DNA from: a virus
Lineage: Duplodnaviria > Caudoviricetes
Length of the DNA stretch: 64,000 bases
Reading direction: 5' to 3' (one strand)
IMG/VR virus record: IMGVR_UViG_3300020037_009644
Coordinates: 32,001-96,000 of that record
Below the pieces are notes generated by a model. It was not told where the DNA came from and did no database searches. It saw nothing but the letters and a program-made list of their open reading frames with translations. Below, piece after piece: positions 1,900-14,846 of the stretch; position 1 is the first letter of the stretch; each line of letters starts with the position of its first letter. Both the position numbers and the translations under genes were made by a program.

Positions 1900-3256
1900 T
1901 TAATTTTCCTAGAATTGGTCTTACAAAACATTTTTTAGCTTTATTCCACTCAGATTCCCAAATAGAAATAACAATCCAACCATGAGCTTCTAAATATGCT
2001 TTTTTGTTAAGAGTTGCGGTATATAATTCACCAAATGTTACTTTAAATTTATCATGGATATCTGTGCTTTTATAATATTTGGGGTTTCCATGAACACGGT
2101 CTCCATTATATTCAATAATTAATTTGTGTTGATGATCAACATAATCAGGAAAAAATACTCTTTCATTTACTATTATTCTATTGTTTCTTTTTTCAAGTGG
2201 AATACTTAAAAAATCTAATAATTCTGTTTCGCCTTTAGAAACACATAAAGAGCAAAATGGACAATTACTACCTTTACCAATTCGACTGCTGGGTGATGCC
2301 ATAAAAGTATGATTTTTATTTTTTAAGCACTTCCATTTAATTTTAATTACACTACCATATGTTAATTCATTTAATTTAATTGAATTATCTTCAGACCACT
2401 CTTTTAATAAAAAAGGATGTGTAATAGCTAATGAATTATTTTTTAAATATTCTACCCTCTCACATTGTGAGCAACACATTTTTTCTTTTTTATAACTATT
2501 AAGCGTTACTTGCCAAGAATGATTGTTGTTACATTTCCACCAAAGCTTTCTAAATGAGCCTCTGCTTACGAATTCAGGATTAATATTATTTTTTTCATAA
2601 TCCCAAAAATTTAAAAATTGTGGATGACTAGTTATAATTGAATTACAAAAATGACATGAAATTTTAACAATATTTTTAGGTTCTTTTTGCCACTCGTGAT
2701 TATGATTTATTGGACATCTTAACCAAATAGGTTTGCTCGCTTTTCTTGCAATATTATTTATTCCTACGATATTTTTAGTTGGATGCCAAAAATTTAATAT
2801 TTCTGGATAAACAACGCTAATACAATTAGTTTCATTTATTTTAATATTATTACAATAAGGACAGGAACCTTTATTACACCAATTAGCTGGCTGTTGTTGC
2901 CACTCATGTAATGGATTTATAGGACATATCCACCAAATAAAATGTGAAAGTGATTTATGTGTGATATCATCAAAATTAATATGACTATTTTTAGTCGGAT
3001 GAATAAAAGGTATAATTTCCGGATTTGTTTCTAAAATAGAAGAACAATATTTACAACTAATTCTACCTTTATTTCCACTAATATTATTTGCATTTAAAAG
3101 AATATCATGCTTATTGTTAATACAACGAAACCAATAACGACGCTCATTATATTGAGATATAGAATGCGGATCAGCTGGGTTATTTTTAACTACAGACCAA
3201 TATTGTAATAGATGTGGATAAATTTCAAAGAAAGATTTTTCTCCGCGAGTGCTCAT
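1880..3256 (-). CDS. Zinc-ribbon repeat (DUF4379-like) protein with C-terminal Vsr/DUF559-like PD-(D/E)XK endonuclease
   Basis: Repeats of W.C..(N..)HEW...CP.C; C-terminal FPD..IIEYNGD..HG..IWESEW. Confidence 0.75.
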   Translation of the reverse strand: MSTRGEKSFFEIYPHLLQYWSVVKNNPADPHSISQYNERRYWFRCINNKHDILLNANNISGNKGRISCKYCSSILETNPEIIPFIHPTKNSHINFDDITHKSLSHFIWWICPINPLHEWQQQPANWCNKGSCPYCNNIKINETNCISVVYPEILNFWHPTKNIVGINNIARKASKPIWLRCPINHNHEWQKEPKNIVKISCHFCNSIITSHPQFLNFWDYEKNNINPEFVSRGSFRKLWWKCNNNHSWQVTLNSYKKEKMCCSQCERVEYLKNNSLAITHPFLLKEWSEDNSIKLNELTYGSVIKIKWKCLKNKNHTFMASPSSRIGKGSNCPFCSLCVSKGETELLDFLSIPLEKRNNRIIVNERVFFPDYVDHQHKLIIEYNGDRVHGNPKYYKSTDIHDKFKVTFGELYTATLNKKAYLEAHGWIVISIWESEWNKAKKCFVRPILGKLNDNKIP

Positions 3257-7634: not shown

Positions 7635-7674
7635 AAAAAGAAATCCCCAGAGAGATTAACCCTCTGGGGATTTC
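7635..7674 (-). terminator. Intrinsic terminator of the DUF2828/small-RNA operon
   Basis: 13-bp stem GAAATCCCCAGAG/CTCTGGGGATTTC (7640-7652, 7662-7674) followed on the minus strand by TTTTT. Confidence 0.85.
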
Positions 7675-7677
7675 GGC

Positions 7678-7722
7678 GGAACGCTTTTTCTAAGCTAAGA
7701 TTGTATTTGCGGTATACGTTCC
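7678..7722 (-). ncRNA. GCAAA-motif stem-loop, copy 1
   Basis: GGAACG-TATACCGCAAATACAATCTTAGCTTAGAAAAAG-CGTTCC; shares core and layout with three other copies. Confidence 0.6.
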
Positions 7723-7731
7723 AAACTTCAG

Positions 7732-9285
7732 CTATGCTGCGATGACGATCTCCGAGAGAAGATCCTGACGAAGGAGGTTAAGCAGACCGTCGAGCGGGGT
7801 AGTTTCGGCTCGTTCCTCTTGTTTGGTTTCGGTTCCCTGGGATACCTCTTTATTCCCCATTCCGAGAAGGGTCTTCAGGTTGCTGGGATCGAAACCAGAG
7901 ATGGTCAACATTCCTTGATCCTTTAACGTAACCGGAAATTCTGAGTGTTCATTGTTGACGAACCACCAGACAAAGGTCACCCCCTCAATTCCAGCCTTGG
8001 CTAGTCTTTCCTTGGCGATTTTGGCGTTGGTTTGAACGTTGTTTCCAACCGGATTAAACTGCATGTCAGAAATAACAAGGACAGTTTTGGGAAACTCCGA
8101 GGCTGGAATTTCGGGATGATCTTTTTTGAGCTTAATCATGAGATCAACGGCACTCTCAAAATTCGTGCTCCCCATTGCGTTTTCTGGAATCTGTTTGACC
8201 TTATCGCAAAAGGATCCAGAAAGAGTTTCCATCCAAGATGTGGACTCGAACATGCAAACTTTGTTGTGAAACCATCCTTCGTTGAGATCGGCAAGGAGGA
8301 TTCCCATCGAGAGACAGATATCGAGCGGAGTTGCTCCTCCAAAGGTATTCCAACTCATCGACCCTGAGGTATCGAGGACCGGAAGGACATTACCGAGGGT
8401 ACAAGAAGCTCTAGCTTTCTCAAGCAAGCTCCAATACTGGAGATTAACCAACTCCTTCTGATACCTAGAAGTTGCTTTCTTGGCATCCTTGAGAAGTTCG
8501 AAGGGATACCCAACGAAGTTGATATCTTTGCCGGAAAGAAGGAACTTGGTAAATCGATCTTCTTGATTATGGCGAGCGATGGTTGTCTGACCATCTTTAC
8601 CTGTCTTGTGCGTAATGTTGCGGAGAGCGCGGCTGGGAATCTTGGAAAAATCAAGCTCTTGAAACCTTCCCGCGCTCATGTCTTGCTGAAAAGTATGAGC
8701 AGTTCCAGAAGCTTTCATTTTTCGATAGGTCTTGGTATTGATTCCAAGAAATTTGCAGAACCCGAGGGCGAATTTGGATCGAGCACGATCTCGCTCCGAG
8801 CGAGCTTTACTTCCCTCTCGAATGGTTGGAAGGAACTTGAAAACAAGCTGATCGTTGTTCTTAATCCCTTCAGAGAGAAGAAGGTAAATCTGATCAGCAT
8901 CCAACGTATTGCAGACCGGAGGAACCATAAGATCTTTCCAACATCCTACCCGAGGTATCAGGTGAAGATTGGGGTAAAGAAGATCCGGATGGTTGTTGTG
9001 AAGATAGACCAAAGCCTGATGGAACTCGTTGCGAATCCCGAGCCCGGTAACCTGGTTATCACATTTGGTTGGCTTTCTGGAAATCATTCGACCGTAGAAA
9101 ACCAGCTTGAGAGCCAGCTCCGGCGAGGCTGAGAAAAGCTTCTCCATGTCACGATCGGTTTCAAGTTGGCTTCTTGAAAGATAAGTTCCTGACTTGGTTA
9201 GGTATTCCACCAGGGGAGCAAGATTTTCGTCACCCATTGAAGAATTTGAGAGAGCTCCGTTGGCTGTAGTTGCTTGAGTTGTCAT
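7732..9285 (-). CDS. DUF2828-family vWA-domain protein (TROVE/Ro60-like architecture)
   Basis: N-terminal TTANGA, GCWKDL, vWA MIDAS DTSGSM, GSTNF, VISDMQF, ISGF motifs; start moved to ATG 9285, which has an AAAGGA Shine-Dalgarno. Confidence 0.8.
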   Translation of the reverse strand: MTTQATTANGALSNSSMGDENLAPLVEYLTKSGTYLSRSQLETDRDMEKLFSASPELALKLVFYGRMISRKPTKCDNQVTGLGIRNEFHQALVYLHNNHPDLLYPNLHLIPRVGCWKDLMVPPVCNTLDADQIYLLLSEGIKNNDQLVFKFLPTIREGSKARSERDRARSKFALGFCKFLGINTKTYRKMKASGTAHTFQQDMSAGRFQELDFSKIPSRALRNITHKTGKDGQTTIARHNQEDRFTKFLLSGKDINFVGYPFELLKDAKKATSRYQKELVNLQYWSLLEKARASCTLGNVLPVLDTSGSMSWNTFGGATPLDICLSMGILLADLNEGWFHNKVCMFESTSWMETLSGSFCDKVKQIPENAMGSTNFESAVDLMIKLKKDHPEIPASEFPKTVLVISDMQFNPVGNNVQTNAKIAKERLAKAGIEGVTFVWWFVNNEHSEFPVTLKDQGMLTISGFDPSNLKTLLGMGNKEVSQGTETKQEERAETTPLDGLLNLLRQDLLSEIVIAA

Positions 9286-9308: not shown

Positions 9309-9352
9309 GAAACACGTTTTTATGCTATGCTTTGGTTTGCTGGTTGTGTTTC
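9309..9352 (-). ncRNA. GCAAA-motif stem-loop, copy 2
   Basis: GAAACAC-AACCAGCAAACCAAAGCATAGCATAAAAAC-GTGTTTC. Confidence 0.65.
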
Positions 9353-9360
9353 AAGAAAAC

Positions 9361-9405
9361 GGATCACATTTTCTATACCAAGAGTGGGTTTGCTGTACGT
9401 GATCC
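9361..9405 (-). ncRNA. GCAAA-motif stem-loop, copy 3
   Basis: GGATCAC-GTACAGCAAACCCACTCTTGGTATAGAAAAT-GTGATCC. Confidence 0.65.
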
Positions 9406-9411
9406 AAGATG

Positions 9412-9538
9412 AAATCATTTGCAAAGATCAATTTAAAGTGGGCTATTTTGCGGTAGACCCCGCAGGCACAATATTACCGAACTTGATCACCGGGGCTTCA
9501 ACCGGCGCAGATTTAGTCTGCATCATTGCAAATGATTT
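9412..9538 (-). ncRNA. Putative 127-nt multibranch structured RNA
   Basis: 13-bp closing stem AAATCATTTGCAA/TTGCAAATGATTT; internal helices GCAGA/TCTGC, CCGG/CCGG, GATCAA/TTGATC and GGG(T)CTA/TAGCCC capped by CCGCAAAA. Confidence 0.55.
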
Positions 9539-9614
9539 TGGTCCCGCGCCGGGAGTCGAACCCCGTTGATGAAACGTGCCGATTGCAGAGAATCACCCTG
9601 GCAAATTGCGCGAG
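9539..9614 (-). ncRNA. tRNA-like RNA (acceptor stem, T-arm and ACCA end; no canonical D or anticodon arm)
   Basis: CTCGCGC/GCGCGGG acceptor stem, A-CCA 3' end, CGGGG-TTCGAC-TCCCG T-like arm, 76 nt. Confidence 0.55.
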
Positions 9615-9615
9615 A

Positions 9616-9692
9616 TGGCTCGACGTGATGGATTCGAACCATCGACCTCCGGCGCAAATGCCGGCGCTCTACCTAGACTAAGCTAACGTCGA
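9616..9692 (-). tRNA. Atypical tRNA with 6-nt anticodon loop ATTTGC (undetermined; Gln-like U1-A72/G73)
   Basis: TCGACGT/ACGTCGA acceptor stem, D-arm GCTT/GAGC, CCGGC/GCCGG anticodon stem, GATGG-TTCGAAT-CCATC T-arm, GCCA end. Confidence 0.75.
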
Positions 9693-9963: not shown

Positions 9964-10010
9964 AGAACGCAAGTTTCATCCATTGAATTTTGGTTTGCTG
10001 GAAGCGTTCT
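9964..10010 (-). ncRNA. GCAAA-motif stem-loop, copy 4
   Basis: AGAACGC-TTCCAGCAAACCAAAATTCAATGGATGAAACTT-GCGTTCT. Confidence 0.65.
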
Positions 10011-10982: not shown

Positions 10983-11011
10983 ATTCTAACGTTGACTCAG
11001 GAATTTGTCAA
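10983..11011 (-). promoter_or_regulatory. Sigma70-type promoter driving the DUF2828/small-RNA operon
   Basis: TTGACA (11011-11006), 17-bp spacer, TAGAAT (10988-10983) in an intergenic gap. Confidence 0.8.
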
Positions 11012-12806: not shown

Positions 12807-13142
12807 TTAATCCTCGAATTCGAGATGGTTGATCAGCTGCTCGAATAGATATTGATGATTAATTCTATTGTTCGAATAGATATTGGAACATGTTGCCAGA
12901 TGCATGTAACTATAAATATCTTGGTTGTATAAATCTATATACAAATCATGACCAGGAGAGTGCCAAATTCGATACGTGCCAAAATTTCCACAAACTTCGA
13001 ACTTGGTATCGTGAGGCTGAACCAATGCCCACTTGAAAAACTTCTTTTTTCTCTCTTCAGAAAATGAATATTTAGTTTTGAACGTCGATGTATCAACGAT
13101 AACGACGTTTTTGATCTTGATTTGATCGTCGCTCATTATCAA
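12807..13142 (-). CDS. Hypothetical protein, paralog family A
   Basis: [24 protein letters not shown]. Confidence 0.6.
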
Positions 13143-14080
13143 ACGCTCAGCTCCATCATTCGATCAATTGAAACTTTTGCCAAAGTCATTAGATCTTGAG
13201 GAAGTTCGATCTGGGGTGAAAGATTGAGGAGGGCGGAGTGAACCTTTTCGAGGGTATTCATTTTCATGAATGGGCAGTCGTTGCAGTTACACGATTCGTT
13301 GTTAGGAGGAGCCGGATAAAACTTCTTCTCAGGCGAAGCTTTGGTCATCTGGTGAAGAATTCCGCTCTCGGTTGCAATGATAAATTCGTCGTTGTTCGAG
13401 GAAATTGAATATCGGAGGAGGGCGGTCGTTGACCCGATGAAATCCGCCATTCGAAGAATCGGATCCTCGCACTCTGGATGAGCAAGAAGAAGTGCCTTTG
13501 GATGTTGTTCTCGAAGCGCAAGAATTCTTCGCTCAGAGAAGGTTTCGTGAACGACGCAAACTCCGTTCCAACAGATCATTTCTCGACCGGTCTTTTGAAT
13601 GAGGTATCTTCCGAGGTTGCGATCTGGTCCGAAGAGAATAACCTTGTCCGTTGGGATCGAATTGATAATCTTTTCGGCGTTGCTGCTGGTACAAATAAGA
13701 TCGGAAAGAGCTTTTACTTCGGCGGTACAGTTGATATAACTAACGACGACGATTTCTCTTCCTGGATGACGAGTTTTCTCGCGGTCGATCCAAGCAGCGA
13801 AGGCATTGGCGGGGCAGCCGGAGGCAAGAGAACAACCAGCGAGAAGATCTGGAAGAATGACGGTCTTGGTTGGATTGAGAATCTTGGCGGTTTCAGCCAT
13901 GAAGTGAACCCCGCAGAAACAAATGACGTCGGCGGTTGTCTTGGCTGCTTCTTGGGCGAGCTGAAGACTGTCTCCGATGAAGTCGGAGATGTCCTGGATT
14001 TCGGGATCTTGGTAGTAATGAGCTAGAATGACGGCGTTTTTCTCGGATTTGAGGCGGGCGATTTCTTGAACAAGATCCAT
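13139..14080 (-). CDS. nadA: Quinolinate synthase
   Basis: [47 protein letters not shown] motifs including the three Fe-S cysteines. Confidence 0.95.
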
Positions 14081-14097: not shown

Positions 14098-14189
14098 TGG
14101 CAGAATCGGAAAGATTCGAACTTTCGTCAGATTTTTTGTCTGAAACAACTTTCCAGGCTGTCGGGTTAATCCATCTCCCCCACGATTCT
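14098..14189 (-). tRNA. tRNA-Ser(GGA)
   Basis: AGAATCG/CGATTCT acceptor stem, ACAGC-CTGGAAA-GTTGT anticodon arm, long variable arm, G73-CCA. Confidence 0.9.
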
Positions 14190-14194
14190 AAAAT

Positions 14195-14650
14195 TCACTT
14201 CTTTTTCTTTTTTAGATTTGCAAAATGCTCAATTACATCTTGAGCACCATAATCAAAATTTGACTTTTTGATAGCCGAATTAAGCGTTTTCATTATCTTT
14301 TGAAACTCCTTAAAGATGGGAGCTGACTCAATTTGTTTGATTAGATAACTATCATTCAGATAATCACTGACATAATAACATTCATCATCAACATAGTCCA
14401 TACCCATTAGTTGGAAAAGACTTAAAGAGATGGTTGTTTTGTTGTACTCATTTTTCAGCTTATCAATCTTTGATATAAAGTCGGCAACAACTTTACCCTT
14501 CAAAAAATCTTCCCATCTAGCGATATCTTTTTCATGCTTTTCATTAGATAGTCTTGAAATTTGAATATCAAGATCTGCCCTTTGTGACTTGAGCTCTTCC
14601 AGAGTCGGCAGCACCCCTTCTTCGTCAATTTTCCATCTGATTTTTTTCAT
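14195..14650 (-). CDS. Hypothetical protein
   Basis: Start moved to ATG 14650 (AAGGA upstream) so it does not overlap tRNA-Cys. Confidence 0.65.
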   Translation of the reverse strand: MKKIRWKIDEEGVLPTLEELKSQRADLDIQISRLSNEKHEKDIARWEDFLKGKVVADFISKIDKLKNEYNKTTISLSLFQLMGMDYVDDECYYVSDYLNDSYLIKQIESAPIFKEFQKIMKTLNSAIKKSNFDYGAQDVIEHFANLKKKKK

Positions 14651-14668
14651 AATTTCCTTGTTTAAAGT

Positions 14669-14746
14669 TGGAGTCGAGGGCAGGATTTGAACCTGCGATA
14701 TCCGATTTTGCAGATCGGCGCCTTTGACCGCTCGAGCCACCCCGAC
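14669..14746 (-). tRNA. tRNA-Cys(GCA)
   Basis: GTCGGGG/CCTCGAC acceptor stem, CCGAT-CTGCAAA-ATCGG anticodon arm, U73-CCA. Confidence 0.9.
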
Positions 14747-14764
14747 AAATATCTTAATGATGAG

Positions 14765-14846
14765 TGGATAGCCTGAGAGTCGAACTCAGCGAGCTTTTGA
14801 CATCCGGGTTACAGCCGGCTTCCGCGCCCTACGGAAATAACTATCC
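14765..14846 (-). tRNA. tRNA-Tyr(GTA), CCA not encoded
   Basis: GGATAGT/GCTATCC acceptor stem, CCGG-CTGTAAC-CCGG anticodon arm, extended variable region, CTGAG-TTCGACT-CTCAG T-arm, A73. Confidence 0.8.

What the first reader, a model, noticed from the sequence alone, without database searches (positions are those of the whole stretch)
9412..9538. 127-nt multibranch RNA with a long terminal stem and the same ACCGCAAA core (Y-RNA-like layout)
The 5' and 3' ends form a perfect 13-bp helix. Inside, a four-way junction carries GCAGA-CTAAA-TCTGC, CCGG-TTGAAGCC-CCGG and GATCAA/TTGATC. The last leads to GGG(T)CTA-CCGCAAAA-TAGCCC, which contains the ACCGCAAA core of stem-loop 1. The element starts exactly after the CCA of the upstream tRNA-like RNA, so tRNA 3' processing could release it. 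A long end-to-end stem with a branched head is the Y RNA architecture; equating the two is inference.
Basis: partly seen in the sequence, partly recalled or inferred. Interest (0 to 1): 0.72.

Follow-up and report, generated by a model that had tools for sequence, protein, structure and literature searches.

The report
Orphan stem-closed RNA beside phage Ro60-like gene
A 127-base stretch that folds into a long-stemmed, branched shape sits in a row of small RNA genes just upstream of a Ro60-shaped protein gene in a large uncultured phage. It is probably a real small RNA, but it matches neither known Y RNAs nor the conserved partner hairpins next to it, so its role is open.

Summary
The sequence observation is largely confirmed. 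A perfect 13-bp terminal helix, the longest such inverted repeat in the 153-kb record, closes two robust hairpins (GCAGA/UCUGC and GCCGG/CCGGU). The RNA starts exactly after the CCA of a tRNA-like unit. The fold z-score is -4.1. The proposed hairpin displaying ACCGCAAA is thermodynamically disfavoured (pair probability 0.01), because CCGCA pairs with UGCGG instead.

The context is a minus-strand operon: promoter, SL4, a tRNA with a 6-nt anticodon loop, a tRNA-like unit, the 127-nt element, SL3, SL2, the DUF2828/vWA gene, SL1 and a terminator. The protein model matches Ro60/Rsr over its full length.

The conserved partner RNAs are the four 'stem + (A/C)C(A/C)GCAA' hairpins. A covariance model built only from other phages finds exactly these four in the window and does not find the 127-nt element. 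Earlier notes of this scan report the same hairpin family on other genomes.

The element has no Rfam match, no homolog and no structural analog in 158 related loci. It occupies the slot that tRNA-like units hold in related arrays, directly 5' of a handle hairpin.

My best reading is a lineage-specific, possibly tRNA-derived, structured RNA unit of a Ro60-like RNP operon. It is Y-RNA-like by context only.

The parts
9412..9538 (-). The 127-nt element. The terminal helix P1 pairs 9538..9526 with 9424..9412. P2 hairpin is 9521..9507. P3 hairpin is 9506..9489, with the 8-nt loop UUGAAGCC. The less certain 3' domain is 9488..9425 and contains ACCGCAAA at 9454..9447.
   Evidence: fold, pair probabilities. 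(longest perfect inverted repeat in the genome). (no Rfam match). (no handle-model match). (no analog).
9539..9615 (-). tRNA-like unit with a 7-8 bp acceptor stem, a GUUCGA T-like arm and an encoded CCA, but a rewired middle. Its CCA abuts the element.
   Evidence: Not called by ARAGORN or Rfam.
9616..9692 (-). tRNA with a 6-nt anticodon loop (AUUUGC), U1-A72, G73 and an encoded CCA.
   Evidence: Rfam tRNA 55.2 bits. ARAGORN reports a 2-base anticodon. Fold.
9361..9405 (-). Handle hairpin SL3: GGAUCAC-GU-ACAGCAAAC...-GUGAUCC. It lies 6 nt 3' of the element.
   Evidence: Model R2, built from other loci only, 24.3 bits, E 0.0025..
9309..9352 (-). Handle hairpin SL2: GAAACAC-AA-CCAGCAAAC...-GUGUUUC. 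It is a tandem duplicate of SL3 with a compensated stem.
   Evidence: R2 27.6 bits, E 3.8e-4. Direct repeat D1/D2 with 52-53 nt period.
9964..10010 (-). Handle hairpin SL4: AGAACGC-UU-CCAGCAAAC...-GCGUUCU.
   Evidence: R2 25.2 bits, E 0.0015. Sequence.
7678..7722 (-). Handle hairpin SL1: GGAACG(U)-AU-ACCGCAAAU...-(G)CGUUCC. It lies between the stop codon and the terminator and is the source of the shared ACCGCAAA.
   Evidence: R2 20.7 bits, E 0.019. Sequence.
7732..9285 (-). DUF2828/DUF7788 (vWA) gene encoding a Ro60-shaped protein. The likely start is ATG 9285..9283, preceded by GAAAGGA. The listed GTG at 9315 lies inside SL2.
   Evidence: Pfam. phrog_850 'RNA-binding protein', E 1e-61. MIDAS D315-S317-S319 invariant. 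AlphaFold pLDDT 85. Foldseek top 11 hits are Ro60/Rsr/TROVE.
7640..7674 (-). Intrinsic terminator: 15-bp stem followed by a U tract.
10983..11011 (-). Sigma-70-like promoter TTGACA-17-TAGAAT (11 of 12 matches), a candidate operon start.
   Evidence: This is a consensus match only.

Best explanation
The element is a transcribed, lineage-specific structured RNA unit of the small-RNA array that precedes a phage Ro60-like (DUF2828/vWA) gene.

Shown:
- It is a non-coding, unusually well-folding stretch closed by a 13-bp helix.
- It sits on the gene strand between a tRNA-like unit with an encoded CCA and the first of two conserved handle hairpins.
- This is the slot that tRNAs and tRNA-like units hold in related arrays.

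Inferred:
- The operon is transcribed from about 11011 to the terminator at 7640.
- Processing at the two upstream tRNA-like units (RNase P at their 5' ends, trimming back to CCA at their 3' ends) frees the element's 5' end.
- The 13-bp helix protects both ends from exonucleases.
- SL3 lies only 6 nt downstream, so the element is most likely carried in cis as a handle-tethered cargo (element + SL3, about 180 nt). The Ro60-like protein would bind the (A/C)C(A/C)GCAA handle while the branched head is presented to another factor. P3, with its tRNA-Phe-like UUGAAG loop, is the obvious candidate surface.

The element may descend from a third tandem tRNA copy.
For: - Fold z -4.1 and robust P1-P3. 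P1 is the longest perfect inverted repeat in 153 kb.
- No ORF with family support covers it, and it is single-copy.
- It has the same strand and immediate adjacency to a tRNA, a tRNA-like unit and CM-verified handles.
- The partner protein is Ro60-shaped.
- In related loci, 16 of 115 handles start 0-5 nt after a tRNA 3' end against a 1% background, and arrays alternate tRNA-like units with handles. The element therefore sits where a tRNA-like unit is expected.
- There is weak collinear similarity to the neighbouring tRNA over the anticodon arm, variable region and the start of the T loop.
- The handle family is strongly tied to the gene strand: 58 of 58 R2 hits, 115 against 16 for ACAGCA after a stem, and all 8 stem pairs covary.
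Against: - No homolog or structural analog was found, so there is no covariation support.
- There are no expression data.
- The plus strand folds nearly as well, and the helices have no G-U pairs. A DNA-level palindrome or a young inverted duplication is therefore not excluded.
- The element has no handle-model match, and its only handle-like word is predicted to be paired.
- The tRNA similarity is not significant (p 0.07), and no tRNA model matches.
Confidence: 0.45

Rival explanations
1. It is a processing and stability spacer only. The long helix would be an endonuclease (RNase III-type) or exonuclease-blocking structure that separates the tRNA-like units from the handle-led mRNA leader. 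It would have no trans-acting role and no protein partner.
For: The 13+3 bp terminal helix lies exactly between the tRNA-like CCA and the leader hairpins. No conserved motif or homolog was found.
Against: Sixteen base pairs with an internal mismatch is short for RNase III. A spacer does not need two further robust internal hairpins. Related arrays manage with 2-5 nt linkers between units.
Confidence: 0.2
2. It is a decaying relic of a third tandem tRNA copy. The region would keep chance-stabilised hairpins but no longer have a function.
For: There is collinear similarity to the adjacent tRNA (GCGCCGG...CCGG...GUUCG). The two upstream units are themselves a defective tRNA and a rewired tRNA-like unit. 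The element is not conserved anywhere.
Against: A perfect 13-bp closing helix and z -4.1 are not expected from decay. The similarity to the tRNA is not significant (p 0.07).
Confidence: 0.15
3. It is a DNA-level element. Examples are a protein-binding palindrome, a recombination or homing site, or the scar of a mobile insertion in a region rich in HNH endonuclease genes.
For: The inverted repeat is purely Watson-Crick and symmetric, both strands fold alike, and HNH genes flank the operon.
Against: It is single-copy in 153 kb, so it is not a MITE. The interior is asymmetric, with its own hairpins. It lies inside an RNA array on the transcribed strand.
Confidence: 0.12
4. It is a true Y RNA or YrlA homolog bound through its terminal stem by the Ro60-like protein.
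For: It has a long end-to-end stem with a branched head next to a Ro60-shaped protein gene. Sub-threshold YrlA matches lie near DUF2828 genes in other loci.
Against: There is no Y_RNA or YrlA match at E<=10. The stem has no bulge and no GNCGAA/GGUCCGA-type motif (sequence; motif from PMC4201824). There are no T or D arms. The conserved RNA signal of this protein family is the ACAGCAA handle, which the element lacks.
Confidence: 0.08

Closest known systems
YrlA / bacterial and mycobacteriophage Y RNAs with Ro60 (Rsr) (Rfam RF02553; Chen et al. 2014, PMC4201824)
   Same: It is a small structured RNA encoded on the same strand within a few hundred bases of a Ro60-shaped protein gene. Its ends pair into a long stem, and it lies in an array rich in tRNA mimicry.
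   Different: There is no covariance-model match and no GNCGAAN0-1G motif near the 5' end. There is no permuted T/acceptor/D domain. The partner protein is DUF2828/DUF7788, not a Pfam TROVE protein. The stem is a perfect AU-rich helix without the bulge that Ro60 contacts.
ACAGCAA 'handle' hairpin RNAs that accompany DUF2828 genes. I found no paper describing them. They are defined here by model R2, and earlier notes of this scan report them on other genomes.
   Same: It shares the operon, strand and promoter-to-terminator unit. It carries one copy of SL1's variant word ACCGCAAA and lies 6 nt from handle SL3.
   Different: It has no 7-9 bp stem followed at once by the unpaired motif. R2 gives no hit at E<=10 with filters off, whereas SL1-SL4 score 20.7-27.6 bits. 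It is 127 nt and multibranch, against about 45 nt and a single hairpin.
tRNA-like units of the same arrays, for example window 9539-9615 and L087:2257-2362 (11-bp acceptor stem)
   Same: It takes the position directly 5' of a handle. Its closing helix is followed by two hairpins in the order and spacing of the D and anticodon arms, with a single G between them. It has a GUUCGG remnant, and its P3 loop starts UUGAAG like a tRNA-Phe anticodon loop.
   Different: It has no T arm, no CCA, an 8-nt loop in P3 and a 13-bp rather than 7-bp closing helix. ARAGORN and the Rfam tRNA model find nothing.

Membership tests
Y RNA / YrlA (Rfam RF00019, RF02553) | Match to the family covariance model | tested here: not met
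   There was no match at gathering score on the window, none at E<=10 on 601 nt and none at E<=10 on 141 nt.
Y RNA / YrlA (Rfam RF00019, RF02553) | Encoded within about 4 kb of, and on the same strand as, a Ro60/TROVE ortholog (criterion of PMC4201824) | tested here: inconclusive
   The gene lies 126 nt downstream on the same strand. Its model matches Ro60/Rsr/TROVE over the full length (prob 1.0, TM 0.40-0.48). By sequence it is DUF2828/DUF7788, with no PDB sequence hit.
Y RNA / YrlA (Rfam RF00019, RF02553) | Ro-binding motif near the 5' end in the terminal stem (GGUCCGA bulged helix, or GNCGAAN0-1G in YrlA) | tested here: not met
   The stem reads AAAUCAUUUGCAA/UUGCAAAUGAUUU. It is perfect, has no bulge, and there is no CGAA anywhere in the element (sequence; motif).
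Y RNA / YrlA (Rfam RF00019, RF02553) | tRNA-like domain with conserved T and D arms | tested here: not met
   ARAGORN and the Rfam tRNA model find nothing. Only a U..A T-loop-compatible UUGAA in P3 and a GUUCGG remnant are present.
DUF2828-associated ACAGCAA handle RNAs (model R2) | A 7-9 bp covarying stem with unpaired (N)ACAGCAA directly 3' of the 5' strand | tested here: not met
   R2 with filters off over the whole window gives four hits (SL1-SL4) and none in 9412-9538 at E<=10.
DUF2828-associated ACAGCAA handle RNAs (model R2) | On the gene strand, close to the DUF2828 gene | tested here: met
   The element is on the minus strand, 126 nt upstream of the ATG and 6 nt from SL3.
DUF2828-associated ACAGCAA handle RNAs (model R2) | Motif accessible (single-stranded) | tested here: not met
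   The only motif-like word, ACCGCAAA, is predicted to be paired with UGCGG (p 0.97). The displaying hairpin has p 0.01. This is a thermodynamic model only.
tRNA (RF00005) | Cloverleaf model match | tested here: not met
   Local alignment to the neighbouring tRNA gives p 0.07.
MITE / repeated mobile element with terminal inverted repeats | Several copies in the genome | tested here: not met
   Neither the 13-mer arms nor the interior recur in the 153-kb record. The record is only about 36% of the genome.
Intrinsic terminator | GC-rich hairpin followed by a U tract | tested here: not met
   The 3' flank is CAUCUUGG, and the scan finds none here.

The most novel reading that the evidence does not exclude
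The element is a new kind of partner RNA for phage Ro60-like proteins. It would be a handle-less, stem-closed, tRNA-derived multi-arm RNA tethered in cis to a handle hairpin (SL3). Its P3 arm would present a tRNA-Phe-like anticodon loop (UUGAAG in an 8-nt loop) beside a tRNA whose anticodon loop is one base short. The RNP would then act as bait or a sensor for host enzymes that cut or modify tRNA anticodon loops.
Probability: 0.12. Interest if true: 0.75.

Novelty: new variant of a known kind. Interest (0 to 1): 0.45.

Why it matters
Ro60 with Y RNAs is a conserved RNA-surveillance RNP, and its bacterial and phage RNA partners are only partly catalogued. This operon shows a Ro60-shaped DUF2828 protein travelling with a distinct handle RNA family, defective tRNAs and at least one orphan structured RNA. 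If the 127-nt RNA is a bound or tethered cargo, these RNPs would carry modules other than tRNA mimics. That would give a compact, synthesisable operon for testing what phage Ro-like proteins do. If it is only a spacer or a relic, the value lies in correctly identifying the four handle hairpins, not this element, as the conserved partners.

Tried and rejected
- **Rfam.** Three searches (window at gathering score, 601 nt and 141 nt at E<=10) found nothing for the element.
- **Sequence homologs.** blastn against GenBank phages found nothing. nhmmer and blastn against 158 related loci found nothing. An exact-pattern scan of IMG/VR found nothing.
- **Structural analogs.** The single-sequence covariance model R3 returned only the element itself over all loci. 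The L053-group hit at 19.0-21.8 bits is a terminator hairpin with broken P1 and P2.
- **Closest relatives.** The protein-based search of viral contigs found no close relatives.
- **MITE idea.** Rejected, because the element is single-copy.
- **Coding idea.** Rejected. The overlapping plus-strand 80-aa ORF has no family hit.
- **'Mini-hairpin displaying the motif' as a recurrent design.** Not enriched: 57 on the plus strand against 39 on the minus strand.
- **Long-stem elements in other loci.** The genome-wide scan was too noisy in AT-rich DNA. The L081 and L053 candidates overlap small ORFs.
- **MAFFT alignment of handles.** It misaligned the 3' strands. I solved this by seeding a model with five equal-length hairpins.

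Full report
**Where it is.** The window is bases 32001-96000 of a 153-kb IMG/VR virus record, estimated at 36% complete, so it comes from a jumbo phage (GC 41%). No GenBank phage resembles this locus. The finding lies on the minus strand.

Read 5' to 3' on that strand, the neighbourhood is:
- a sigma-70-like promoter TTGACA-17-TAGAAT at 11011..10983;
- an HNH endonuclease gene;
- hairpin SL4 (10010..9964);
- a 77-aa ORF with no family;
- a tRNA at 9692..9616 whose anticodon loop has only six bases;
- a tRNA-like unit at 9615..9539 with an acceptor stem, a GUUCGA arm and an encoded CCA, which neither ARAGORN nor Rfam calls;
- the 127-nt element at 9538..9412;
- hairpins SL3 (9405..9361) and SL2 (9352..9309);
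- the DUF2828/DUF7788 gene (ATG 9285 to stop 7732);
- hairpin SL1 (7722..7678);
- a strong intrinsic terminator at 7674..7640.

**Check of the observation.** The perfect 13-bp terminal helix is real. It is the longest perfect inverted repeat enclosing 50-220 nt in the whole 153-kb record, and only 3 of 20 shuffled genomes contain one of 13 bp or more. The minus-strand RNA folds at -42.6 kcal/mol with z -4.12, and none of 200 shuffles folds as well.

Pair probabilities show that P1, GCAGA/UCUGC (P2) and GCCGG/CCGGU (P3) are robust, at 0.9-1.0. The 3' half is less certain. GAUCAA/UUGAUC has p about 0.3 and competes with a GAU/AUC extension of P1 (p about 0.65).

The plus strand folds almost as well (z -3.59), and no helix contains a G-U pair. 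The strand is therefore assigned from context, not from the element. The element is single-copy, and the plus-strand ORF that overlaps it has no family support.

**The protein next door.** The 517-527 aa product hits DUF7788 (E 1.5e-23), DUF2828 (E 5e-8) and phrog_850 'RNA-binding protein' (E 1e-61). It has hundreds of homologs at 46% identity or less in metagenomes, phages and Bacteroidota. An invariant D-x-S-x-S MIDAS motif is present. It has no sequence hit in the PDB.

An AlphaFold model from 37 sequences (pLDDT 85, pTM 0.86) has as its top eleven Foldseek PDB hits Xenopus and human Ro60, Deinococcus Rsr and a TROVE domain. These hits are aligned over about 550 columns with probability 1.0 and TM 0.37-0.48 (0.40-0.48 for the top ten). 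The protein is Ro60-shaped. TROVE proteins in jumbo phages have been noted before (PMC7824862), but I found no paper on DUF2828 partner RNAs.

**The conserved RNA signal is a different element.** I fetched 158 loci with DUF2828 homologs. In them, a hairpin with a 7-9 bp stem followed at once by unpaired (N)ACAGCA(A/U) recurs next to the gene and on its strand, often in tandem and often alternating with tRNAs or tRNA-like units. Three results support this:
- ACAGCA after a stem of 7 bp or more occurs 115 times on the gene strand against 16 on the other, far above any other NNNGCA word.
- A covariance model seeded from five hairpins and rebuilt from 47 hits, none from this window, shows compensatory changes at all eight stem pairs (95% paired against 69% in shuffles and 40-54% when slid, on a model-fitted alignment).
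- All 58 hits at E<=0.01 in 100 loci are on the gene strand.

Some handles enclose a T arm (L102, L109), and sub-threshold YrlA matches lie by the gene in L008, L011 and L003. The family is therefore Y-RNA-like in design.

Run over the whole 64-kb window with filters off, this model gives exactly four significant hits: SL2, SL4, SL3 and SL1 (27.6, 25.2, 24.3 and 20.7 bits). All are on the minus strand around the gene, and none lies in the 127-nt element even at E<=10. SL2 and SL3 are a tandem duplication with compensated stems. In this phage the motif reads ACAGCAA, CCAGCAA (twice) and ACCGCAA.

I found this family myself before consulting earlier notes of the scan. Those notes report the same family on at least twelve other genomes and the four hairpins on this genome.

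**What the 127-nt element is not.** Membership of each of the following was tested and not met:
- It is not a Y RNA, YrlA, tRNA or any other Rfam family.
- Its stem lacks the bulge and the GNCGAA/GGUCCGA-type motif that Ro60 proteins contact (sequence; motif from PMC4201824).
- It is not a handle RNA.
- It is not a repeated mobile element.
- It is not a terminator.

It also has no homolog by nhmmer or blastn in the 158 loci or by exact pattern in IMG/VR. A single-sequence covariance model of it finds no structural analog. The only marginal hit, in L053 and its near-identical relatives, has broken P1 and P2 and is a terminator hairpin.

**What it most likely is.** In related arrays, the unit directly 5' of a handle is typically a tRNA or tRNA-like RNA. 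Sixteen of 115 handles begin 0-5 nt after a tRNA 3' end, against a 1% background. L002, L021, L086 and L087 show strict alternation.

The element sits in that slot, 6 nt 5' of SL3 and immediately 3' of two tRNA-derived units. Its first half is laid out like a tRNA: a closing helix, a 4-nt linker, hairpin P2, a single G, then hairpin P3. It aligns collinearly with the neighbouring tRNA over GCGCCGG...CCGG...GUUCG. That similarity is not significant (p 0.07).

My best reading, at about 45%, is a lineage-specific, possibly tRNA-derived, structured RNA unit. Processing at the upstream tRNA-like units would free its 5' end, and the 13-bp helix would stabilise it. It would probably function tethered to handle SL3 as cargo of the Ro60-like RNP. 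Everything beyond sequence, fold statistics and position is inference.

The rivals are:
- a mere processing or stability spacer (0.2);
- a decaying tRNA copy (0.15);
- a DNA-level palindrome (0.12);
- a true Y RNA bound through its own stem (0.08).

**Limits.** There is no covariation evidence, because no relative closer than 46% protein identity could be reached. There are no expression data. The thermodynamic model cannot settle the 3' domain.

Noticed in passing
window 9616-9692 (-): This is an otherwise canonical tRNA (55 bits) with a 6-nt anticodon loop AUUUGC on a CCGGC/GCCGG stem, U1-A72, G73 and an encoded CCA. ARAGORN reads a 2-base anticodon. Odd tRNAs also sit by DUF2828 genes elsewhere: L002 1959-2040 (ata), L021 2241-2328 (aaa), L007 4140-4226 (acc) and L056 1392-1464 (4-base anticodon).
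   Followed up: partly
window 9539-9615 (-): This tRNA-like unit has a 7-8 bp acceptor stem, a GUUCGA arm and an encoded CCA but no normal D or anticodon arms. ARAGORN and Rfam do not detect it.
   Followed up: partly
window 7678-7722, 9309-9352, 9361-9405, 9964-10010 (-): Four handle hairpins (a covarying stem plus unpaired ACAGCAA, CCAGCAA or ACCGCAA) are the only hits in 64 kb to a model built from other phages. Each of SL2 and SL3 is followed by GUUUUCUU.
   Followed up: yes
L004:930-1015 (+) (same contig as L092): This is an 86-nt RNA with a 13-bp closing helix whose 5' strand is AGACAGCAACUCC, so the family motif is buried in the stem. It has three internal hairpins and folds at -58.5 kcal/mol, z -9.8. 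It directly follows a canonical handle at 870-918.
   Followed up: partly
L087:86-215 and L087:2257-2362 (+): In one tRNA-shaped RNA the anticodon arm is replaced by a capped helix followed by CAACAGCAAUU. A second tRNA has an 11-bp acceptor stem and a 49-nt expanded anticodon region, downstream of the DUF2828 gene.
   Followed up: no
L102:2347-2438, L109:201-290 and 2229-2303 (+): These handle hairpins have loops that contain a GGUUCGAAUCC-type T arm. This is a YrlA-like design of closing stem, motif and tRNA part. Sub-threshold YrlA matches occur at L008:4213-4286, L011:2061-2129 and L003:8-101.
   Followed up: partly
many loci, e.g. L021:2328-2331, L086:~489-492, L102:~1298-1301, L054-L061:~2166-2170: Handles often start 2-5 nt after a tRNA discriminator base, with a linker CUA(A/U). 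This suggests that tRNA 3'-end processing sets the handle RNA's 5' end.
   Followed up: partly
window 9489-9506 (-): The P3 loop UUGAAGCC begins like a tRNA-Phe(GAA) anticodon loop (compare L011:4962-5033) but has eight bases. The tRNA two units upstream has a loop one base short. No tRNA-Phe was found in the 153-kb record.
   Followed up: no
window 13139-14080 (-): This is a full-length quinolinate synthase NadA gene (E 1e-117) in a phage genome, next to tRNA-Ser, tRNA-Cys and tRNA-Tyr genes at 14098-14846.
   Followed up: no
L053:4414-4525 and relatives (+): This 112-nt stretch is closed by a 16-bp perfect helix (z -5.5) about 290 nt downstream of the DUF2828 gene and is conserved at 72-100% in 15 loci. 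It lies inside a 96-aa ORF, so its RNA status is unclear.
   Followed up: partly
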